From Patescibacteria group bacterium (GTDB lineage Bacteria; Patescibacteriota; Minisyncoccia; Minisyncoccales; Staskawiczbacteraceae), in NCBI GenBank assembly GCA_038065755.1, contig JBBTQJ010000020.1:1-44517 (forward strand): a stretch of DNA of 44,517 bases. The letters run 5' to 3'. Below the pieces are notes generated by a model. The model had not been told where the DNA came from. It was given only the letters and a program-made list of their open reading frames with translations, and did no database searches. Each line of letters begins with the position of its first letter. The first letter of the stretch is position 1. A program made the translations under genes and the position numbers. This document shows, in pieces, positions 315 through 44,517 of this stretch.

Positions 315-379
315 CTTGTACTTATCAAAATAACATAAATAATTTACTGCGTCAACTTGCGCCGCAATTTTTATCGCAT

Positions 380-414
380 AATAAAATACACCCGTGCGCT
401 AGTGCGCGGGTGTA
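380..414 (-). terminator. intrinsic terminator downstream of mraY
   Basis: GC hairpin tacacccgtgcgc/gcgcgggtgta (387-414), followed on the minus strand by TTTTATT. Confidence 0.6.
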
Positions 415-442
415 TTTGCCACACAATACGCTCAACGAATAA

Positions 443-18288: not shown

Positions 18289-18340
18289 AATTCCCTCCTT
18301 TTCTATTGTCAACGAACACCTGAAAGAACATATTAATTAT

Positions 18341-18501
18341 TAGACCTGTTGCGAAATAAGATTCGCAACGAAATTTTCAGATTTTGAAGCGAAAATTTGA
18401 TAAAATGAGGAGGTTTGCCTATGGCAAGCCGACGAATTTTAGCAAATTTGTAGCCAAAATATGAAAATTGCAGTAGAAATATTATTTCGCAACAGGTCTA
18501 T
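18341..18501. repeat. 161-bp long imperfect palindrome, family C copy 1 (pyrB 5' region)
   Basis: Perfect 19-bp terminal stem tagacctgttgcgaaataa/ttatttcgcaacaggtcta. The internal core matches the element at 43875-44044. Confidence 0.85.
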
Positions 18502-18502
18502 T

Positions 18503-18550
18503 ATTCTATTCTTTATTTTAAAAATATCAATAGTTTGTCGCATAATATAA
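18503..18550 (-). promoter_or_regulatory. promoter (TTGATA-16-TAGAAT) with upstream TGCGACAAA motif
   Basis: tatcaa 18525-18530 rc and attcta 18503-18508 rc; motif tttgtcgcataatataa at 18534-18550. Confidence 0.5.
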
Positions 18551-20293: not shown

Positions 20294-20464
20294 TTTTACA
20301 AAAATACAATTTTTGCTTACATCTAAAAAAAATTATTTAGAAGGTTCCGGTTTGCCTTTTAGGGCTCCCATAAGGATCTTCTTTCAAAGAGCTGTTTCAA
20401 ATTCAAGTTTAATGCTATAAAAACAAACCCTAATTGTCAATATCTTTTTAATTTACAAAAAGAA

Positions 20465-20487
20465 ATTGGGACGTATGACGTCCCAAT
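20465..20487. repeat. REP-like 23-nt palindrome attgggacgtatgacgtcccaat, copy downstream of the RAYT gene
   Basis: 10-bp perfect stem, 3-nt loop, 8 nt after the stop codon. Identical to the copy at 20995-21017. Confidence 0.85.
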
Positions 20488-20494
20488 AACTATT

Positions 20495-21214
20495 CTAATC
20501 TAAAACAATGTCGCCAAAATTTTTTATTTCTTTCTTATAAACAACCCAATTATCAACTATATTTTTACAGCCCCTAACCCCACCCATCGCTTCTAAAAGA
20601 AATTCTCTTTGTGTAACATAAAAAAAATTCTTTTTACCGAGATAATCGGGGTAGCTGTGCCGTTTGTTATTCTCTAAAAACTCAACTACTTTTTCTGGAT
20701 TTTTAATACCTTTCTCTTTCCAGCCAGGCTCAATCAATGATATTAAATTAGTGTGAATATATGCAAAAACATTTTTTAGTTGTTCCTCGGTTTTAATATG
20801 AACTACCTGAAATCTGCTAAAAAGATGTCCTTTACGATCATATTTATCATTAAAATATTTTGCGTAACCACCGCTGACTTTTTTCATAAAATTAGTAATT
20901 CCATCATCTTTCAATTGTCGTAATAATAGGTGCAGATGATTGGGCATAAAAGAAAAACTTAAAACCTCTACCATTCTATCCCTTTTGTCTAGATATTGGG
21001 ACGTATGACGTCCCAATGTTTCTAATAATTTTTCTTTTTTGCGCTGAAGACGACGCAACCATATTTCTGTAGGTTTAGTATTATTAAACTCGTAAATTGA
21101 AAAAATTCCACGATAAAAATCTTTTTCTTCGCTAAAAACCAACGTGTCGCCTACGGCTCGAATAACAGTATGATAGATTTCATCATTTACTAATTGTGGT
21201 CGTTGAATTGACAT
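20495..21214 (-). CDS. REP-associated tyrosine transposase (RAYT / IS200-like Y1 HUH)
   Basis: HUH motif MPNHLHLLL and catalytic-Tyr region AYIHTN; 239 aa. Confidence 0.75.
   Translation of the reverse strand: MSIQRPQLVNDEIYHTVIRAVGDTLVFSEEKDFYRGIFSIYEFNNTKPTEIWLRRLQRKKEKLLETLGRHTSQYLDKRDRMVEVLSFSFMPNHLHLLLRQLKDDGITNFMKKVSGGYAKYFNDKYDRKGHLFSRFQVVHIKTEEQLKNVFAYIHTNLISLIEPGWKEKGIKNPEKVVEFLENNKRHSYPDYLGKKNFFYVTQREFLLEAMGGVRGCKNIVDNWVVYKKEIKNFGDIVLD
20995..21017. repeat. REP-like palindrome, copy inside the RAYT coding sequence
   Basis: Identical 23-mer, read in-frame as LGRHTSQ. Confidence 0.85.
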
Positions 21215-21221
21215 AAGGTTT

Positions 21222-22193
21222 TTAGAAAAAATAGGGTTTGAATATTTCGGTTACCAAAAAAGCAATATAAATAAATAATAAAATCAATGCCTCTTTTTTG
21301 GTTATTTTTTCCCCTGTTTTAATGGCAAGAAGAAAAACCAGCGAGGCAATTATGGCATAAGCCCTGGCAATTAAAAACGGAGAAAAATCTTCAATTTCAA
21401 AAGGGGAAATTATGGCCACAATTCCTAAAACCAAAGTGGCGCAAATAATCACAGAGCCCATTATGTCGCCCAGCACCATCCACCCCTCGCCCTTTCTGGC
21501 TGAAATAATTGAAAAATAAGCTTCCGGAAAACAATTTCCCAGGCCAACAATTAAAATGCCAACTAACGAAAGAGGAATTCCCAGTTTAACAGAAAATAAT
21601 TTAGCGCTGTCAATAATCGCCCACGAGGCCAATAAAAGAAAAATTAAAATAACAGTTATTTTTATTAAATCTTTTAAAAATAAAAGCAGTAATAATTTTT
21701 TTGGTTTTTCTTTTTTTCTTTCTTTATAAATTTTTTTAAACCTGTCTCTTTTTGAAAAAAGCCAATATGAATAAAAAACAAAACTCAAAAGCAAAATTAC
21801 TCCGTCTATTCTGTTGATATTGCCGTCAAAAATCAAGAGCAAAGGCAAAATCACAATTGCCGAGGTAAAAATAGCGCTTGTTTGCACCATATTGCTTTCA
21901 GCTTGCAAATGTTTTTTTGAAAACAGCACGGCCAGGGCCATAATTATAGTTAAATCAATCAAGTTCCCGCCAATAATATCTCCAAAAGCAAGCTGGGGCA
22001 TGCCGTTTATAGCGGCGTTAATATCAACAAAAAGATTAGGCAAAGAAGTGGCAAACGCCATTACGAAAAAAGCGGTCACAAACTCCCGCCAGCGCAAAAA
22101 TTTTGCTATATCCGCCAGGGTCTTAACCAAATGAGAGCTCAGCCACGAAAGAGCAAGGCAGGAAACTATAAAAATAATAATATTTAAAACCAT
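21222..22193 (-). CDS. Na+/Ca2+ exchanger family (CaCA, YrbG-like) membrane protein
   Basis: Two alpha-repeat-like halves (GDIIGGNLIDLT and GDIMGSVIICAT); about 10 TM segments. Confidence 0.7.
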   Translation of the reverse strand: MVLNIIIFIVSCLALSWLSSHLVKTLADIAKFLRWREFVTAFFVMAFATSLPNLFVDINAAINGMPQLAFGDIIGGNLIDLTIIMALAVLFSKKHLQAESNMVQTSAIFTSAIVILPLLLIFDGNINRIDGVILLLSFVFYSYWLFSKRDRFKKIYKERKKEKPKKLLLLLFLKDLIKITVILIFLLLASWAIIDSAKLFSVKLGIPLSLVGILIVGLGNCFPEAYFSIISARKGEGWMVLGDIMGSVIICATLVLGIVAIISPFEIEDFSPFLIARAYAIIASLVFLLAIKTGEKITKKEALILLFIYIAFLVTEIFKPYFF

Positions 22194-23483: not shown

Positions 23484-23558
23484 GGCCCTATCGTCTAGTC
23501 TGGTCTAGGACATCAGATTCTCAATCTGGTAACACCGGTTCAAATCCGGTTGGGGCCA
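23484..23558 (+). tRNA. tRNA-Glu (anticodon CTC)
   Basis: Cloverleaf folded by hand: acceptor GGCCCTA/TGGGGCC, anticodon loop TTCTCAA, T-arm ACCGG-TTCAAAT-CCGGT. No encoded CCA. Confidence 0.85.
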
Positions 23559-23567
23559 CTTTCAATT

Positions 23568-27202: not shown

Positions 27203-27511
27203 CACTTTTTATATATATCCCATTTTGTTCGTAAATGAGCATATTTTTCCACTCTTTATCCACACCCCACATATTATAATTTCATCACATAATAAAACAC
27301 ATCCACGCATCAACGCGTAGATGTATTTGTCGCATAATAAAACTTTTGCGAAAAAAACATGCCCTTATGTGTTTGCTATTCGCCCAAAGGATATAACACT
27401 ATAAATAACTATAAATAAAAAGTAATAATATAAAATCTGCCAAAACTACTACGATCGTAGTTTTTTTGTCAAATTTTGTTCTTAAAATATCGGATAATAA
27501 TAGTTTTACGT

Positions 27512-33958: not shown

Positions 33959-33969
33959 AATTAAATTTG

Positions 33970-34042
33970 TGGACGGGACAGGATTCGAACCTGTAACCCC
34001 TGCAATGTGAATGCAGTGCTCTGACCATTGAGCTACTCGTCC
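33970..34042 (-). tRNA. tRNA-Val (anticodon CAC)
   Basis: Hand fold: GGACGAG/CCCGTCC acceptor (one A-C mismatch), D-arm GCTC-AATGGTCA-GAGC, anticodon loop TTCACAT, T-arm ACAGG-TTCGAAT-CCTGT. Confidence 0.8.
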
Positions 34043-36963: not shown

Positions 36964-37467
36964 TTATTGTTTTTCTTTATTTTCTCTTATTTTATCTAAC
37001 ACCCTCACAAAGCTTGCTATAGGGCCCGAAAGTGAGCCGACCAATCTGCTTAATAATTCAGGTCTTGGCGGTATGCTGGCCAAAGCCAAAACCCTGTCTT
37101 TTTCTATAAATTTATTTTCAAATAATCCGCCTAAAATTTTAAAATTTTCCTGCTCTTTAGCAAATTTGTTTGAAATTCTAGCCGGAGCAATTTCGTCGTC
37201 TATGCCGAAAACCAATGCCAGCTGACCGGGAATATTTTCTTTTATTTTCTGCCAAAAAGAAATGTTTGACTGGCCAAAGGCAATTCTTACCAATGTTTTC
37301 TTGGCGATTTTTAAAGAGCAACCGGCTTCTTTCAAATTCTTTCTTAAACCAAACATATCTTTTGAGCTTACTTTGGAAAAATCAACAAAAACCAATGATT
37401 TTTGTTTTGAAATATTTTCTTTTAAGCTATTAATTTGATTTTGCTTTTGTTCTTTTGTTAATGCCAT
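36964..37467 (-). CDS. rplJ: 50S ribosomal protein L10
   Basis: 167 aa, L10-like, directly upstream of rplL. Confidence 0.9.
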   Translation of the reverse strand: MALTKEQKQNQINSLKENISKQKSLVFVDFSKVSSKDMFGLRKNLKEAGCSLKIAKKTLVRIAFGQSNISFWQKIKENIPGQLALVFGIDDEIAPARISNKFAKEQENFKILGGLFENKFIEKDRVLALASIPPRPELLSRLVGSLSGPIASFVRVLDKIRENKEKQ

Positions 37468-37587
37468 ATAATAAAAAATCTGCTTACGCAGACAAATTAA
37501 AAATTATTTTAATTTTTAACCTCGGCAGGATTTATTCCCTTGACTACACTCGGGACACCTGCTGTCTGCGGCTTAATTAATTCTATA
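37468..37587 (-). promoter_or_regulatory. rplJ leader with terminator/antiterminator alternative (L10-leader-like)
   Basis: TCTGC-GTAA-GCAGA plus U6 (37479-37492 rc) just before the ATG. Upstream CCGCAGACA can pair with TGTCTGCG. Confidence 0.55.
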
Positions 37588-37593
37588 TAATAT

Positions 37594-42290: not shown

Positions 42291-42364
42291 TGGCAGGGGC
42301 GCCTGGACTCGAACCAGGGACAAAGATTTTGGAGATCTTTATGATACCACTTCACCACGCCCCC
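42291..42364 (-). tRNA. tRNA-Trp (anticodon CCA), CCA end encoded
   Basis: Hand fold: GGGGGCG/CGCCCCT acceptor, anticodon arm AAGAT-CTCCAAA-ATCTT, T-arm CCTGG-TTCGAGT-CCAGG, discriminator G plus CCA. Confidence 0.85.
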
Positions 42365-43872: not shown

Positions 43873-43874
43873 CT

Positions 43875-44044
43875 AATTACCTTGAATTACGAAATGACCT
43901 TCAATTCTTTATATTTTAGTTTTAGCTGCAAATTTGCTATAACTCGTCGGCGTATCCTGCGGATATGCCTCCTCGTTCTATCAAATTTTCGCTTCAAAAC
44001 CAAAATAAAATAATTCGGAAGGCATTTCGTAACTCAAGGTAATT
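43875..44044. repeat. 170-bp long imperfect palindrome, family C copy 2 (abuts the GT2 start codon)
   Basis: 28-29 nt terminal stem taattaccttgaattacgaaatgaccttc/gaaggcatttcgtaactcaaggtaatta. The core matches 18341-18501 in the opposite orientation. Confidence 0.85.
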
Positions 44045-44146
44045 ATAAAGTTTAAAATCATAACGCTATTATTTTAAATGGTGTTTGTTAAAATTTCAAT
44101 GAAATGAAGCGTTAATTTTCATATTTATAAACGAGAAATAAAAACA

Positions 44147-44457: not shown

Positions 44458-44517
44458 AGCCGATGACCAGATTTGAACTGGTGACCTTTCCCTTACCATG
44501 GGAGTGCTCTACCAGCT
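44458..44517 (-). tRNA. tRNA-Thr (anticodon GGT), 5' end cut by the window edge
   Basis: rc reads AGCTGGTAGAGC-ACTCCC-ATGGTAA-GGGAA-AGGTC-ACCAG-TTCAAAT-CTGGT-CATCGGC-T. Confidence 0.75.

What the first reader, a model, noticed from the sequence alone, without database searches (positions are those of the whole stretch)
20465..21214. RAYT-type HUH transposase with its 23-nt REP hairpin both downstream of and inside its own gene
The 239-aa protein has the HUH (NHLHLL) and Tyr (YIHTN) motifs of IS200-like/REP-associated tyrosine transposases. The perfect palindrome attgggacgtatgacgtcccaat occurs twice. One copy lies 8 nt after the stop (20465-20487). An identical copy lies within the CDS (20995-21017), translated in-frame as LGRHTSQ, upstream of the HUH strand. 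RAYTs are normally flanked by their REPs. A cognate REP interrupting yet not inactivating the gene is unusual. It could act as a self-regulatory hairpin or be a recent insertion.
Basis: partly seen in the sequence, partly recalled or inferred. Interest (0 to 1): 0.65.

Follow-up and report, generated by a model that had tools for sequence, protein, structure and literature searches.

The report
Transposase-like gene carrying its own hairpin
A transposase-like gene of an ultra-small groundwater bacterium carries, inside its own coding sequence and again just after its stop codon, the DNA hairpin its enzyme family probably recognises; this is an ancient feature of a very large gene family, not a recent accident.

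Summary
The 23-mer ATTGGGACGTATGACGTCCCAAT (10-bp stem, asymmetric 3-nt loop, so not a perfect palindrome) occurs exactly twice in the window. One copy lies 7 nt past the stop of the 239-aa gene 20495-21214(-). The other lies in frame inside it (LGRHTSQ).

The protein is a distant Y1/HUH enzyme. Its best fold match is the E. coli REP-associated transposase bound to its REP hairpin.

The in-gene copy is not recent. In about 80 related Patescibacteria loci the same disordered linker before the HUH strand encodes a hairpin. Stem sequences differ by lineage, with 11 of 12 pairs showing compensatory changes. They match hairpins placed before the start and after the stop of the same gene. A subfamily only ~40% identical has the same three-hairpin layout.

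The protein is under purifying selection (dN/dS 0.06-0.13). The hairpin arms stay identical where synonymous sites are saturated.

Dispersal is weak: no other copy in 44.5 kb. The few extra copies in relatives sit in frame inside housekeeping genes without adding length.

In-frame REPs inside RAYT genes are already described for subclass 2.4 (Quentin 2018). This is therefore a new variant of a known kind. What the in-gene copy does remains inferred.

The parts
20495..21214 (-). 239-aa Y1/HUH (RAYT-like) gene. It lies 7 nt downstream of a Na/Ca-exchanger gene (21222-22193, -) and is probably co-transcribed with it.
   Evidence: ORF; Pfam PF01797 34.4 bits; AF2 model pLDDT 80.7, top PDB match 4ER8; dN/dS 0.06-0.13; same neighbours in L119, L120 and L121.
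20995..21017 (.). In-gene hairpin (INT), 10-bp stem and 3-nt loop, translated as LGRHTSQ (residues 67-73).
   Evidence: Homologous position carries a hairpin in 46/78 genes at >=9/10 pairs, against 0-1/78 in control segments. Covariation.
20975..21028 (-). Hypervariable linker (about residues 63-80) between an extra basic helix (51-66) and the strand preceding the HUH strand. Predicted disordered.
   Evidence: Protein alignment A1; pLDDT below 50 at residues 69-74.
20465..20487 (.). Downstream hairpin (DOWN), identical to INT at 23/23 positions, 7 nt after the stop.
   Evidence: A hairpin 12-24 nt after the stop is present in about 40 of 44 related loci.
20455..20464 (-). T-rich tail (TTCTTTTTGT on the - strand) following the downstream hairpin. 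Together they look like an intrinsic terminator.
   Evidence: Terminator-like hit. T-tracts also follow the hairpin in L119 and L120 but not in L028.
20930..20941 (-). HUH motif, N92-H-L-H95.
   Evidence: Read directly from the sequence. Invariant N92, H93, H95 in A1.
20759..20761 (-). Catalytic-type tyrosine Y152 (YIHTNL).
   Evidence: Invariant Y152, H154, N156 in A1. Lies in helix 143-155 of the model.

Best explanation
The gene encodes a single-strand-DNA transesterase of a large RAYT-like Y1/HUH family found across Patescibacteria. The 23-nt hairpin is that enzyme's cognate DNA element. Family members normally keep three copies: one in the leader before the start codon, one inside the ORF, and one just after the stop. 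The in-gene copy lies in a disordered linker that tolerates any peptide. In this window the leader copy is missing because the gene abuts the upstream gene. The downstream copy also serves as an intrinsic terminator.

The in-gene copy is ancestral and actively maintained at the DNA level. The copies evolve in concert by copy-and-paste.

The following is inferred, not shown. The hairpins extrude on single-stranded DNA. The enzyme binds them and cuts and rejoins at their feet. That exchange keeps the copies alike. It also gives the enzyme a binding and cleavage site within its own gene, which could limit its own expression or activity.
For: Shown:
- Identical 23-mers at the gene.
- Y1 fold closest to the RAYT-REP complex 4ER8.
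- A hairpin in the same linker across 78 distinct genes: 46/78 reach >=9/10 pairs, against 0-1/78 in four control segments.
- On 37 in-gene hairpins, 82% of cells are paired, against 58% when shuffled and at most 40% when slid. 11 of 12 pairs show compensatory changes.
- The in-gene arm is identical to a flanking arm in 24/41 same-locus pairs, against 3.9% of cross-locus pairs.
- The same imperfection is shared by the upstream and in-gene copies in L062, L052/57/76 and L086.
- Two paralogs on one contig each have their own hairpin type.
- A subfamily ~40% identical has the same three hairpins.
- dN/dS is 0.06-0.13 and dS 1.6-2.6, yet the arms are identical in WIN, L028 and L040.
- The hairpin peptide lies in a loop with pLDDT below 50.
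- Three reading phases are used.
- G.T versus A.C mismatches show no sense-strand bias, which points to DNA rather than mRNA.
- The downstream copy with its T-tract scores as a terminator.
Against: - No biochemical evidence exists that this protein binds or cuts the hairpin.
- The protein lacks the W[QE] motif and the Y---NP signature of classical RAYTs. The hairpins lack the GTAG foot that E. coli RAYT reads.
- Copies outside the gene are rare, so a mobilising role is poorly supported.
- Assembled contigs from four runs show no rearrangement between the two copies. This is a weak test, because contigs drop rare variants.
- Loop orientation follows no consistent rule.
- Concerted evolution could come from ordinary short-patch gene conversion rather than from the enzyme.
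Confidence: 0.55

Rival explanations
1. Passive passenger. The in-gene copy does nothing for the gene or the enzyme. It is one more copy of a selfish hairpin sitting in a loop where it does no harm. It is kept similar to its neighbours by gene conversion or repeated overwriting.
For: - The loop is disordered and hypervariable.
- The same hairpin sits in frame in unrelated housekeeping genes in relatives.
- The in-gene site can hold an inverted doublet, a tandem duplication or a half-duplication.
- Quentin 2018 read the subclass 2.4 cases this way.
Against: The hairpin is retained at one fixed position in nearly every member of two subfamilies that are only ~40% identical, across saturated dS. 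That is hard to obtain without selection or a strongly biased process. An unmaintained hairpin should have decayed.
Confidence: 0.27
2. mRNA-level element. The three hairpins act in the transcript as a 5'-UTR structure, an internal translational brake or RNase site, and a 3' terminator. They do not act as DNA.
For: - All three lie within the probable transcript. The upstream copy is centred 16-87 nt before the start.
- The downstream copy looks like an intrinsic terminator.
- From my own knowledge, IS200 uses a leader hairpin to repress tnpA.
Against: - The in-gene hairpins show no preference for G.U-compatible mismatches on the sense strand (4 G.T vs 11 A.C).
- Loops flip to their complement between close relatives.
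- No U-tract follows the in-gene copy.
- Lineage-specific identity of the three stems is not needed for RNA stability alone.
Confidence: 0.1
3. The whole unit, from upstream hairpin through the gene to the downstream hairpin, is an IS200-like insertion sequence. The outer hairpins are its ends and the in-gene copy is an alternative end.
For: The hairpins are concentrated at the gene's two ends and dispersed copies are few. The unit is about 0.85 kb. More distant relatives have different neighbours.
Against: - Conserved synteny: WIN, L119, L120 and L121 share one context, and L124 and L127 share another.
- No identical multi-copy genes were seen. Paralogs on one contig are divergent.
- Strong purifying selection.
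- The NCBIfam IS200 model scores 14.5 bits against a cut-off of 55.
- There is no Y---Q motif and no tnpB.
Confidence: 0.06
4. Recent insertion of a REP into the gene in this lineage.
For: The in-gene and downstream copies are 23/23 identical in the window.
Against: Orthologs at 89%, 85% and 76% identity carry the hairpin at the same codons. So do about 80 further loci.
Confidence: 0.02

Closest known systems
TnpA-REP / RAYT subclass 2.4 (Bertels group 4) with REPs inserted in frame within the tnpA-REP gene (Quentin et al. 2018, PMC6006769)
   Same: A Y1/HUH gene flanked by cognate hairpins, with a further copy inside its own ORF that keeps the frame. The insertion lies in a peripheral, variable region of the protein.
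   Different: [quoted passage not shown] Here it lies before the HuH strand, in the linker that follows the first helix.
- There, the REPs carry a GT[AG]G foot or a 'double foot'. Here the hairpins have a GTC-N-GAC tip, A/T-rich feet and no GTAG.
- Hosts there are Cyanobacteria and Bacteroidetes. Here they are Patescibacteria.
- Motifs there are WQ and YIxNNP. Here they are HLF and YIHTNL.
- Here the in-gene copy is fixed at one position in essentially the whole family.
E. coli RAYT (TnpA-REP, YafM) and its REPtron; structure 4ER8
   Same: Best structural match (E 2.3e-6, target-normalised TM 0.67). A single-copy, vertically inherited Y1 enzyme whose gene is flanked by its cognate hairpins.
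   Different: - 13% sequence identity.
- The E. coli protein has 165 aa. This one has 239, with an extra basic helix, a loop and a C-terminal helical domain.
- From my own knowledge, E. coli has hundreds of extragenic REPs. Here there are only a handful of copies.
- No in-gene copy is described for the E. coli gene in what I read.
IS200/IS605 TnpA with subterminal left-end and right-end hairpins
   Same: The Y1 fold (ISDra2 and IS608 matches). Hairpins lie just outside both ends of the gene.
   Different: Those are about 150 aa with a Y---Q motif, occur as many identical copies, and often carry tnpB. None of these apply here.
Intragenic REPs and Rickettsia palindromic elements (Di Nocera 2013, PMC3733652)
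   Same: Palindromic repeats found in frame inside functional genes, as with the dispersed copies in relatives (DegT, GrpE, TsaD, YchF).
   Different: Those elements add residues. In the four cases I could test, the 23-nt hairpin adds no net length.
Rolling-circle HUH initiators whose origin lies inside their own gene (phiX174 gene A, pT181 repC). This comparison rests on my own knowledge and was not tested here.
   Same: An HUH enzyme with its cognate hairpin or nick site embedded in its own coding sequence, acting in cis.
   Different: Those are replicons with the nick site in a larger loop. Here the locus is chromosomal, the loop is 3 nt, and there are no replicon features.

Membership tests
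Y1/HUH transposase superfamily (Pfam PF01797, TnpA-Y1) | HUH motif and a catalytic Tyr on the Y1 fold | tested here: met
   NHLH at residues 92-95 and Y152, both invariant in A1. Pfam 34.4 bits against a cut-off of 23. Fold matches to 4ER8, ISDra2 and IS608 TnpA.
RAYT / TnpA-REP (class 2 of Quentin 2018; NCBIfam NF047646) | Score above the curated equivalog cut-off | tested here: not met
   32.3 bits against a cut-off of 80.
RAYT / TnpA-REP (class 2) | Y---NP tyrosine motif and W[QE] motif | tested here: not met
   The tyrosine motif is YIHTNL: N is kept, P is replaced by L. GHLFSRF stands where W[QE] is expected. Motif definitions.
RAYT / TnpA-REP (class 2) | Gene flanked by cognate hairpins (REPtron), each gene type with its own hairpin type | tested here: met
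   Upstream and downstream hairpins are present in about 38-40 of 44 loci and match the in-gene copy. Paralogs each have their own type. In the window only the downstream and in-gene copies are present.
RAYT / TnpA-REP (class 2) | Low copy number and vertical inheritance | tested here: met
   Synteny across WIN, L119 and L120, and across L124 and L127. dN/dS 0.06-0.13.
Canonical REP / REPIN | 5' GT[AG]G foot; tens to hundreds of extragenic copies, often as inverted doublets | tested here: not met
   No conserved foot motif. Only 2 copies in 44.5 kb. About 7 exact-arm copies in MAG JAHJTG01, and the 4 away from the gene lie inside ORFs. One in-gene inverted doublet, in L126.
RAYT subclass 2.4 (in-gene REP) | [quoted passage not shown] | tested here: not met
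   The in-frame in-gene hairpin is present but lies upstream of HuH (residues 67-73 against HuH 92-95). There is no GTAG.
IS200/IS605 TnpA (subclass 1.1) | About 150 aa, Y---Q motif, multiple near-identical copies, curated model score | tested here: not met
   239 aa with YIHTN. NF033573 scores 14.5 bits against 55. No identical paralogs in the loci examined.
Any Y1 enzyme-hairpin pair | The protein binds and cleaves its hairpin as single-stranded DNA | not testable with these tools
   Needs biochemistry.

The most novel reading that the evidence does not exclude
The enzyme does not insert hairpins. It overwrites: it cuts at both feet of a hairpin, or of a hairpin-like proto-site, and swaps in another copy without changing length. 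That one process would explain four things: the concerted evolution of the three gene-associated copies, the shared imperfections, the loop flips (CAT to ATG and back), and exact copies inside housekeeping ORFs at sites where orthologs have an equally long, partly similar sequence. If so, Patescibacteria would have an enzyme-driven, frame-preserving cassette replacement acting inside coding DNA, with the copy inside the enzyme's own gene as a protected master.
Probability: 0.15. Interest if true: 0.85.

Novelty: new variant of a known kind. Interest (0 to 1): 0.6.

Why it matters
RAYT-like Y1 enzymes are widespread, and what they do for their hosts is still unclear. This work shows that thousands of genes from Patescibacteria, which have tiny, densely packed genomes, keep the enzyme's presumed recognition hairpin at one fixed place inside the coding sequence as well as at both gene ends. 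The three copies change together. That gives a compact, natural enzyme-substrate set for testing what these enzymes do. It also shows selection or homogenisation acting on DNA structure inside an ORF. If the hairpins prove to be exchanged without changing length, it would be a new way for short sequences to be written into coding DNA. For genome annotation, the lineage-specific peptides in this family (LGRxTSQ, IATSDVA, EVGL) are translations of a hairpin, not protein motifs.

Tried and rejected
1. Deletion or excision between the two direct copies. Contigs from four groundwater runs show no such joint. One unrelated 91-nt skip came from a divergent contig. This is a weak test.
2. RNA evidence. 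No RNA run could be listed.
3. Modular exchange at the in-gene hairpin. Identity of the N-terminal and C-terminal parts across 94 proteins shows no clear chimeras (r 0.34, residual sd 0.064).
4. Programmed frameshifting at the A-rich run before the hairpin. I considered this from the sequence. The KKEK run is not conserved across the family, so I dropped it.
5. A fixed orientation rule for the three copies. Some loci suggest that the upstream and in-gene copies point one way and the downstream copy the other (L079, L086). L070 and the loop data contradict this.
6. A conserved cleavage or guide motif at the hairpin feet. I found only A/T-rich extension of the palindrome.
7. Rfam. Nothing at the locus.
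8. Literature. I found no paper on Y1 or RAYT hairpins in Patescibacteria. The relevant precedent is Quentin 2018.
9. Amycolatopsis palindromes with the same 10-nt arms. No Y1 homolog lies within those 8-kb loci, so I treat them as unrelated.
10. The profile of the family against PDB sequences gave no hit. Only fold comparison linked it to 4ER8.

Full report
**Observation.** The window is AT-rich DNA from a Patescibacteria (candidate phyla radiation) organism; the runs that hold it are groundwater metagenomes. The 23-mer ATTGGGACGTATGACGTCCCAAT occurs at 20465-20487 and 20995-21017. It occurs nowhere else, even with three mismatches allowed, and shuffled sequence gave none. It is a 10-bp inverted repeat around an asymmetric 3-nt loop, not a perfect palindrome. 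It folds strongly as single-stranded DNA on either strand (about -10.3 to -11.1 kcal/mol, z about -6 to -6.8). The ORF 20495-21214(-) encodes 239 aa. One copy begins after a 7-nt gap past the stop codon. The other is read in frame as LGRHTSQ (residues 67-73), upstream of NHLH (92-95) and Tyr152.

**The protein.**
- Pfam Y1_Tnp matches above its cut-off (34 bits). NCBIfam's RAYT and IS200 models match far below theirs (32 vs 80 bits, and 14.5 vs 55 bits).
- An AlphaFold model built on 42 homologs (pLDDT 80.7) shows the Y1 core, an extra basic helix (51-66), a low-confidence loop (67-81, pLDDT below 50 at 69-74) and a C-terminal helical domain.
- Its best match among solved structures is 4ER8, the E. 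coli REP-associated tyrosine transposase bound to a REP hairpin. ISDra2 and IS608 TnpA follow.
- The family is large. 1,222 proteins match at E<=1e-3 among 90%-identity clusters. 1,479 clusters at 50% identity match at E<=1e-10.
- It is under purifying selection, with dN/dS 0.06-0.13.
- The gene sits in the same context in relatives at 89% and 85% identity: amino-acid permease, Na/Ca exchanger, Y1 gene, RmuC, L21. It is therefore inherited vertically.

**The in-gene hairpin is a family feature, not a recent insertion.** The protein alignment is 60-90% identical everywhere except one hypervariable stretch, which is exactly where the hairpin lies. I fetched 80 metagenomic loci and several others.
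- In 78 distinct genes the linker holds a hairpin with at least 9 of 10 pairs in 46 cases, against 0-1 of 78 in four control segments of the same genes. Perfect stems of 9-22 bp occur in 30. Most of the rest have shorter or slightly imperfect versions.
- The stems differ between lineages, for example GGGACGT, GCAACGT, CAGACGT, TACGGACGT, GTGTGAAGTC and TTAAGTC. They keep a common GTC-N-GAC tip.
- On 37 in-gene hairpins centred by the tip motif, 82% of cells pair, against 58% when shuffled and at most 40% when slid. 11 of 12 pairs show compensatory changes.
- The hairpin is read in at least three phases, giving LGRPTSQ, IATSDVA and SCEVGLN. The constraint is therefore on the nucleic acid, not on the peptide.
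- Between the window and relatives with saturated synonymous divergence (dS 1.6-2.6) the arms are still identical or differ by one base.

**Three copies that evolve together.** In about 38-40 of 44 non-redundant loci a hairpin lies 16-87 nt before the start, one lies inside the gene (centre +196 to +232), and one lies 12-24 nt after the stop.
- The 10-nt arm of the in-gene copy is identical to a flanking copy in 24 of 41 same-locus comparisons, against 3.9% of cross-locus comparisons.
- Copies share the same imperfections, in L062, L052/57/76 and L086. This indicates copying rather than independent selection for pairing.
- Two divergent paralogs 18 kb apart on one contig each have their own hairpin type.
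- A second subfamily only ~40% identical to the window protein has the same three hairpins with yet other stems. It has 7,461 hits at E<=1e-20 and spans Brenner-, Wolfe-, Lipton- and Nealsonbacteria. 62 of 119 of its proteins carry 'EVGL', the translation of GAAGTCGGACTT.
- In the window lineage the leader copy is absent because the gene starts 7 nt after the upstream gene.
- The downstream copy is followed by TTCTTTTTGT and scores as an intrinsic terminator. The orthologs L119 and L120 also have T-tracts; L028 does not.

**Dynamics.** Among four close relatives the loop flips between CAT and its complement ATG, independently at the in-gene and downstream copies. There are 12-nt indels directly 5' of the in-gene hairpin. 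Elsewhere the in-gene site holds an inverted, REPIN-like doublet (L126), a 45-nt tandem duplication (L127) or a duplicated 3' arm (L098). G.T versus A.C mismatches show no sense-strand bias (in-gene copies: 4 vs 11). This argues for a symmetric, DNA-level constraint rather than an mRNA structure.

**Dispersal.** The hairpin is hardly 'repetitive'. A class-wide scan finds only the two copies in 44.5 kb. In relatives' flanks only a handful of extra copies appear. In the MAG that holds the 76%-identical homolog, the arms occur exactly six times on four contigs, plus the one-mismatch in-gene copy.
- The four copies away from the gene all lie in frame inside real genes: a DegT aminotransferase, GrpE, an AddB-like nuclease and a large beta-helix protein. 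Single copies lie in YchF and TsaD of other Patescibacteria.
- In the four cases I could test, these are not net insertions. The beta-helix site aligns without gaps to its ortholog, whose DNA already shares 14 of 23 bases, including the TTGG/CCAA feet. TsaD is 2 aa longer, DegT 1 aa shorter and YchF shorter than solved homologs at the site. I cannot explain this with the tools at hand.

**Mechanism.** The following are shown: the enzyme class, the conservation, the covariation, the concerted evolution and the DNA-level symmetry. The following are inferred. The enzyme recognises these hairpins on single-stranded DNA, as E. coli RAYT and IS608 TnpA do with theirs, and cuts and rejoins at their feet. 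That exchange homogenises the copies. The in-gene copy gives the enzyme a cis site in its own gene. The main rival is that the in-gene copy is a harmless passenger in a permissive loop. Its fixation at one position across two deeply diverged subfamilies argues against pure neutrality. An mRNA-level role, an IS-like mobile unit and a recent insertion are less likely, for the reasons given under each rival.

**Comparison with what is known.** Quentin et al. [quoted passage not shown] The principle is therefore known. The present family differs in several ways:
- host phylum;
- protein motifs (HLF in place of W[QE]; YIHTNL in place of Y---NP);
- length and C-terminal domain, which resemble subclass 2.1 in size;
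- hairpin type (no GTAG foot);
- the position of the in-gene copy, before HuH;
- its near-universal fixation;
- very low dispersal.

I found no paper describing this for Patescibacteria. I file it as a new variant of a known kind.

**Verdict.** The RAYT-plus-cognate-hairpin reading is broadly right, but 'recent or unusual insertion' is wrong. The feature is ancient, family-wide and maintained. The function of the in-gene copy is open, and the length-neutral intragenic copies are the most intriguing loose end.

Noticed in passing
L019:2423-2445, L024:4996-5018, L025:2044-2066, L038:6876-6898, L007:5227-5249, L035:88-110: Exact copies of the hairpin arms lie in frame inside housekeeping genes of related Patescibacteria (DegT, GrpE, AddB-like nuclease, beta-helix protein, YchF, TsaD). 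They use all three frames and both orientations. In the four testable cases they add no net length relative to orthologs or solved homologs.
   Followed up: partly
window 18323-18518 and 43874-44045: Two copies, in opposite orientation, of a 130-190-nt element. Each is itself an imperfect inverted repeat with a conserved core (TTTTGAAGCGAAAATTTGATAAAATGAGGAGG ... GCCGACGAATTTTAGCAAATTTGTAGCCAAAA). No Rfam match. It could be a miniature transposable element or a structured RNA.
   Followed up: partly
window 369-428 and 27280-27339: A 60-nt repeated element with conserved flanks (CATAATAAAA ... TGTATTTG) around a hairpin whose stem differs between the two copies by compensatory changes.
   Followed up: partly
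L120:9760-10170 and L121 (ortholog in Parcubacteria bacterium Licking1014_1): The 85%-identical, syntenic ortholog has a 1-nt insertion near codon 20, seen in two independent assemblies, so only a 215-aa product is called. Its leader holds a hairpin of a different type (TTACAGACGT ... ACGTCTGTAA). Its downstream hairpin has a duplicated 3' arm.
   Followed up: partly
L126:10198-10248; L127:4771-4836: In one relative the in-gene site holds an inverted doublet of two hairpins, like a REPIN, in frame. In another it holds a 45-nt tandem direct duplication.
   Followed up: partly
L001-L037 (Amycolatopsis spp., for example L002:1951-2054): High-GC Amycolatopsis genomes carry many copies of a palindrome with a stem of about 23 bp (GACGATGAAGGAATTGGGACGT-TSA-ACGTCCCAATTCCTTCATCGTC). 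Its core arms are identical to the window's hairpin. No Y1 homolog lies within those 8-kb loci.
   Followed up: partly
L128:9950-10880, L129:9880-10770: A second Patescibacteria Y1 subfamily, about 40% identical to the window protein and with more than 7,000 members, has the same layout of upstream, in-gene and downstream hairpins with its own stems. In L129 the in-gene copy differs from the flanking copies by one compensated base pair.
   Followed up: yes
window 37464-37589 (-), 23484-23559, 33969-34042, 42291-42364, 44458-44517: Ordinary features: a ribosomal protein L10 leader (Rfam, 59 bits) and tRNA genes (Glu, Val, Trp, and one cut by the window end).
   Followed up: no
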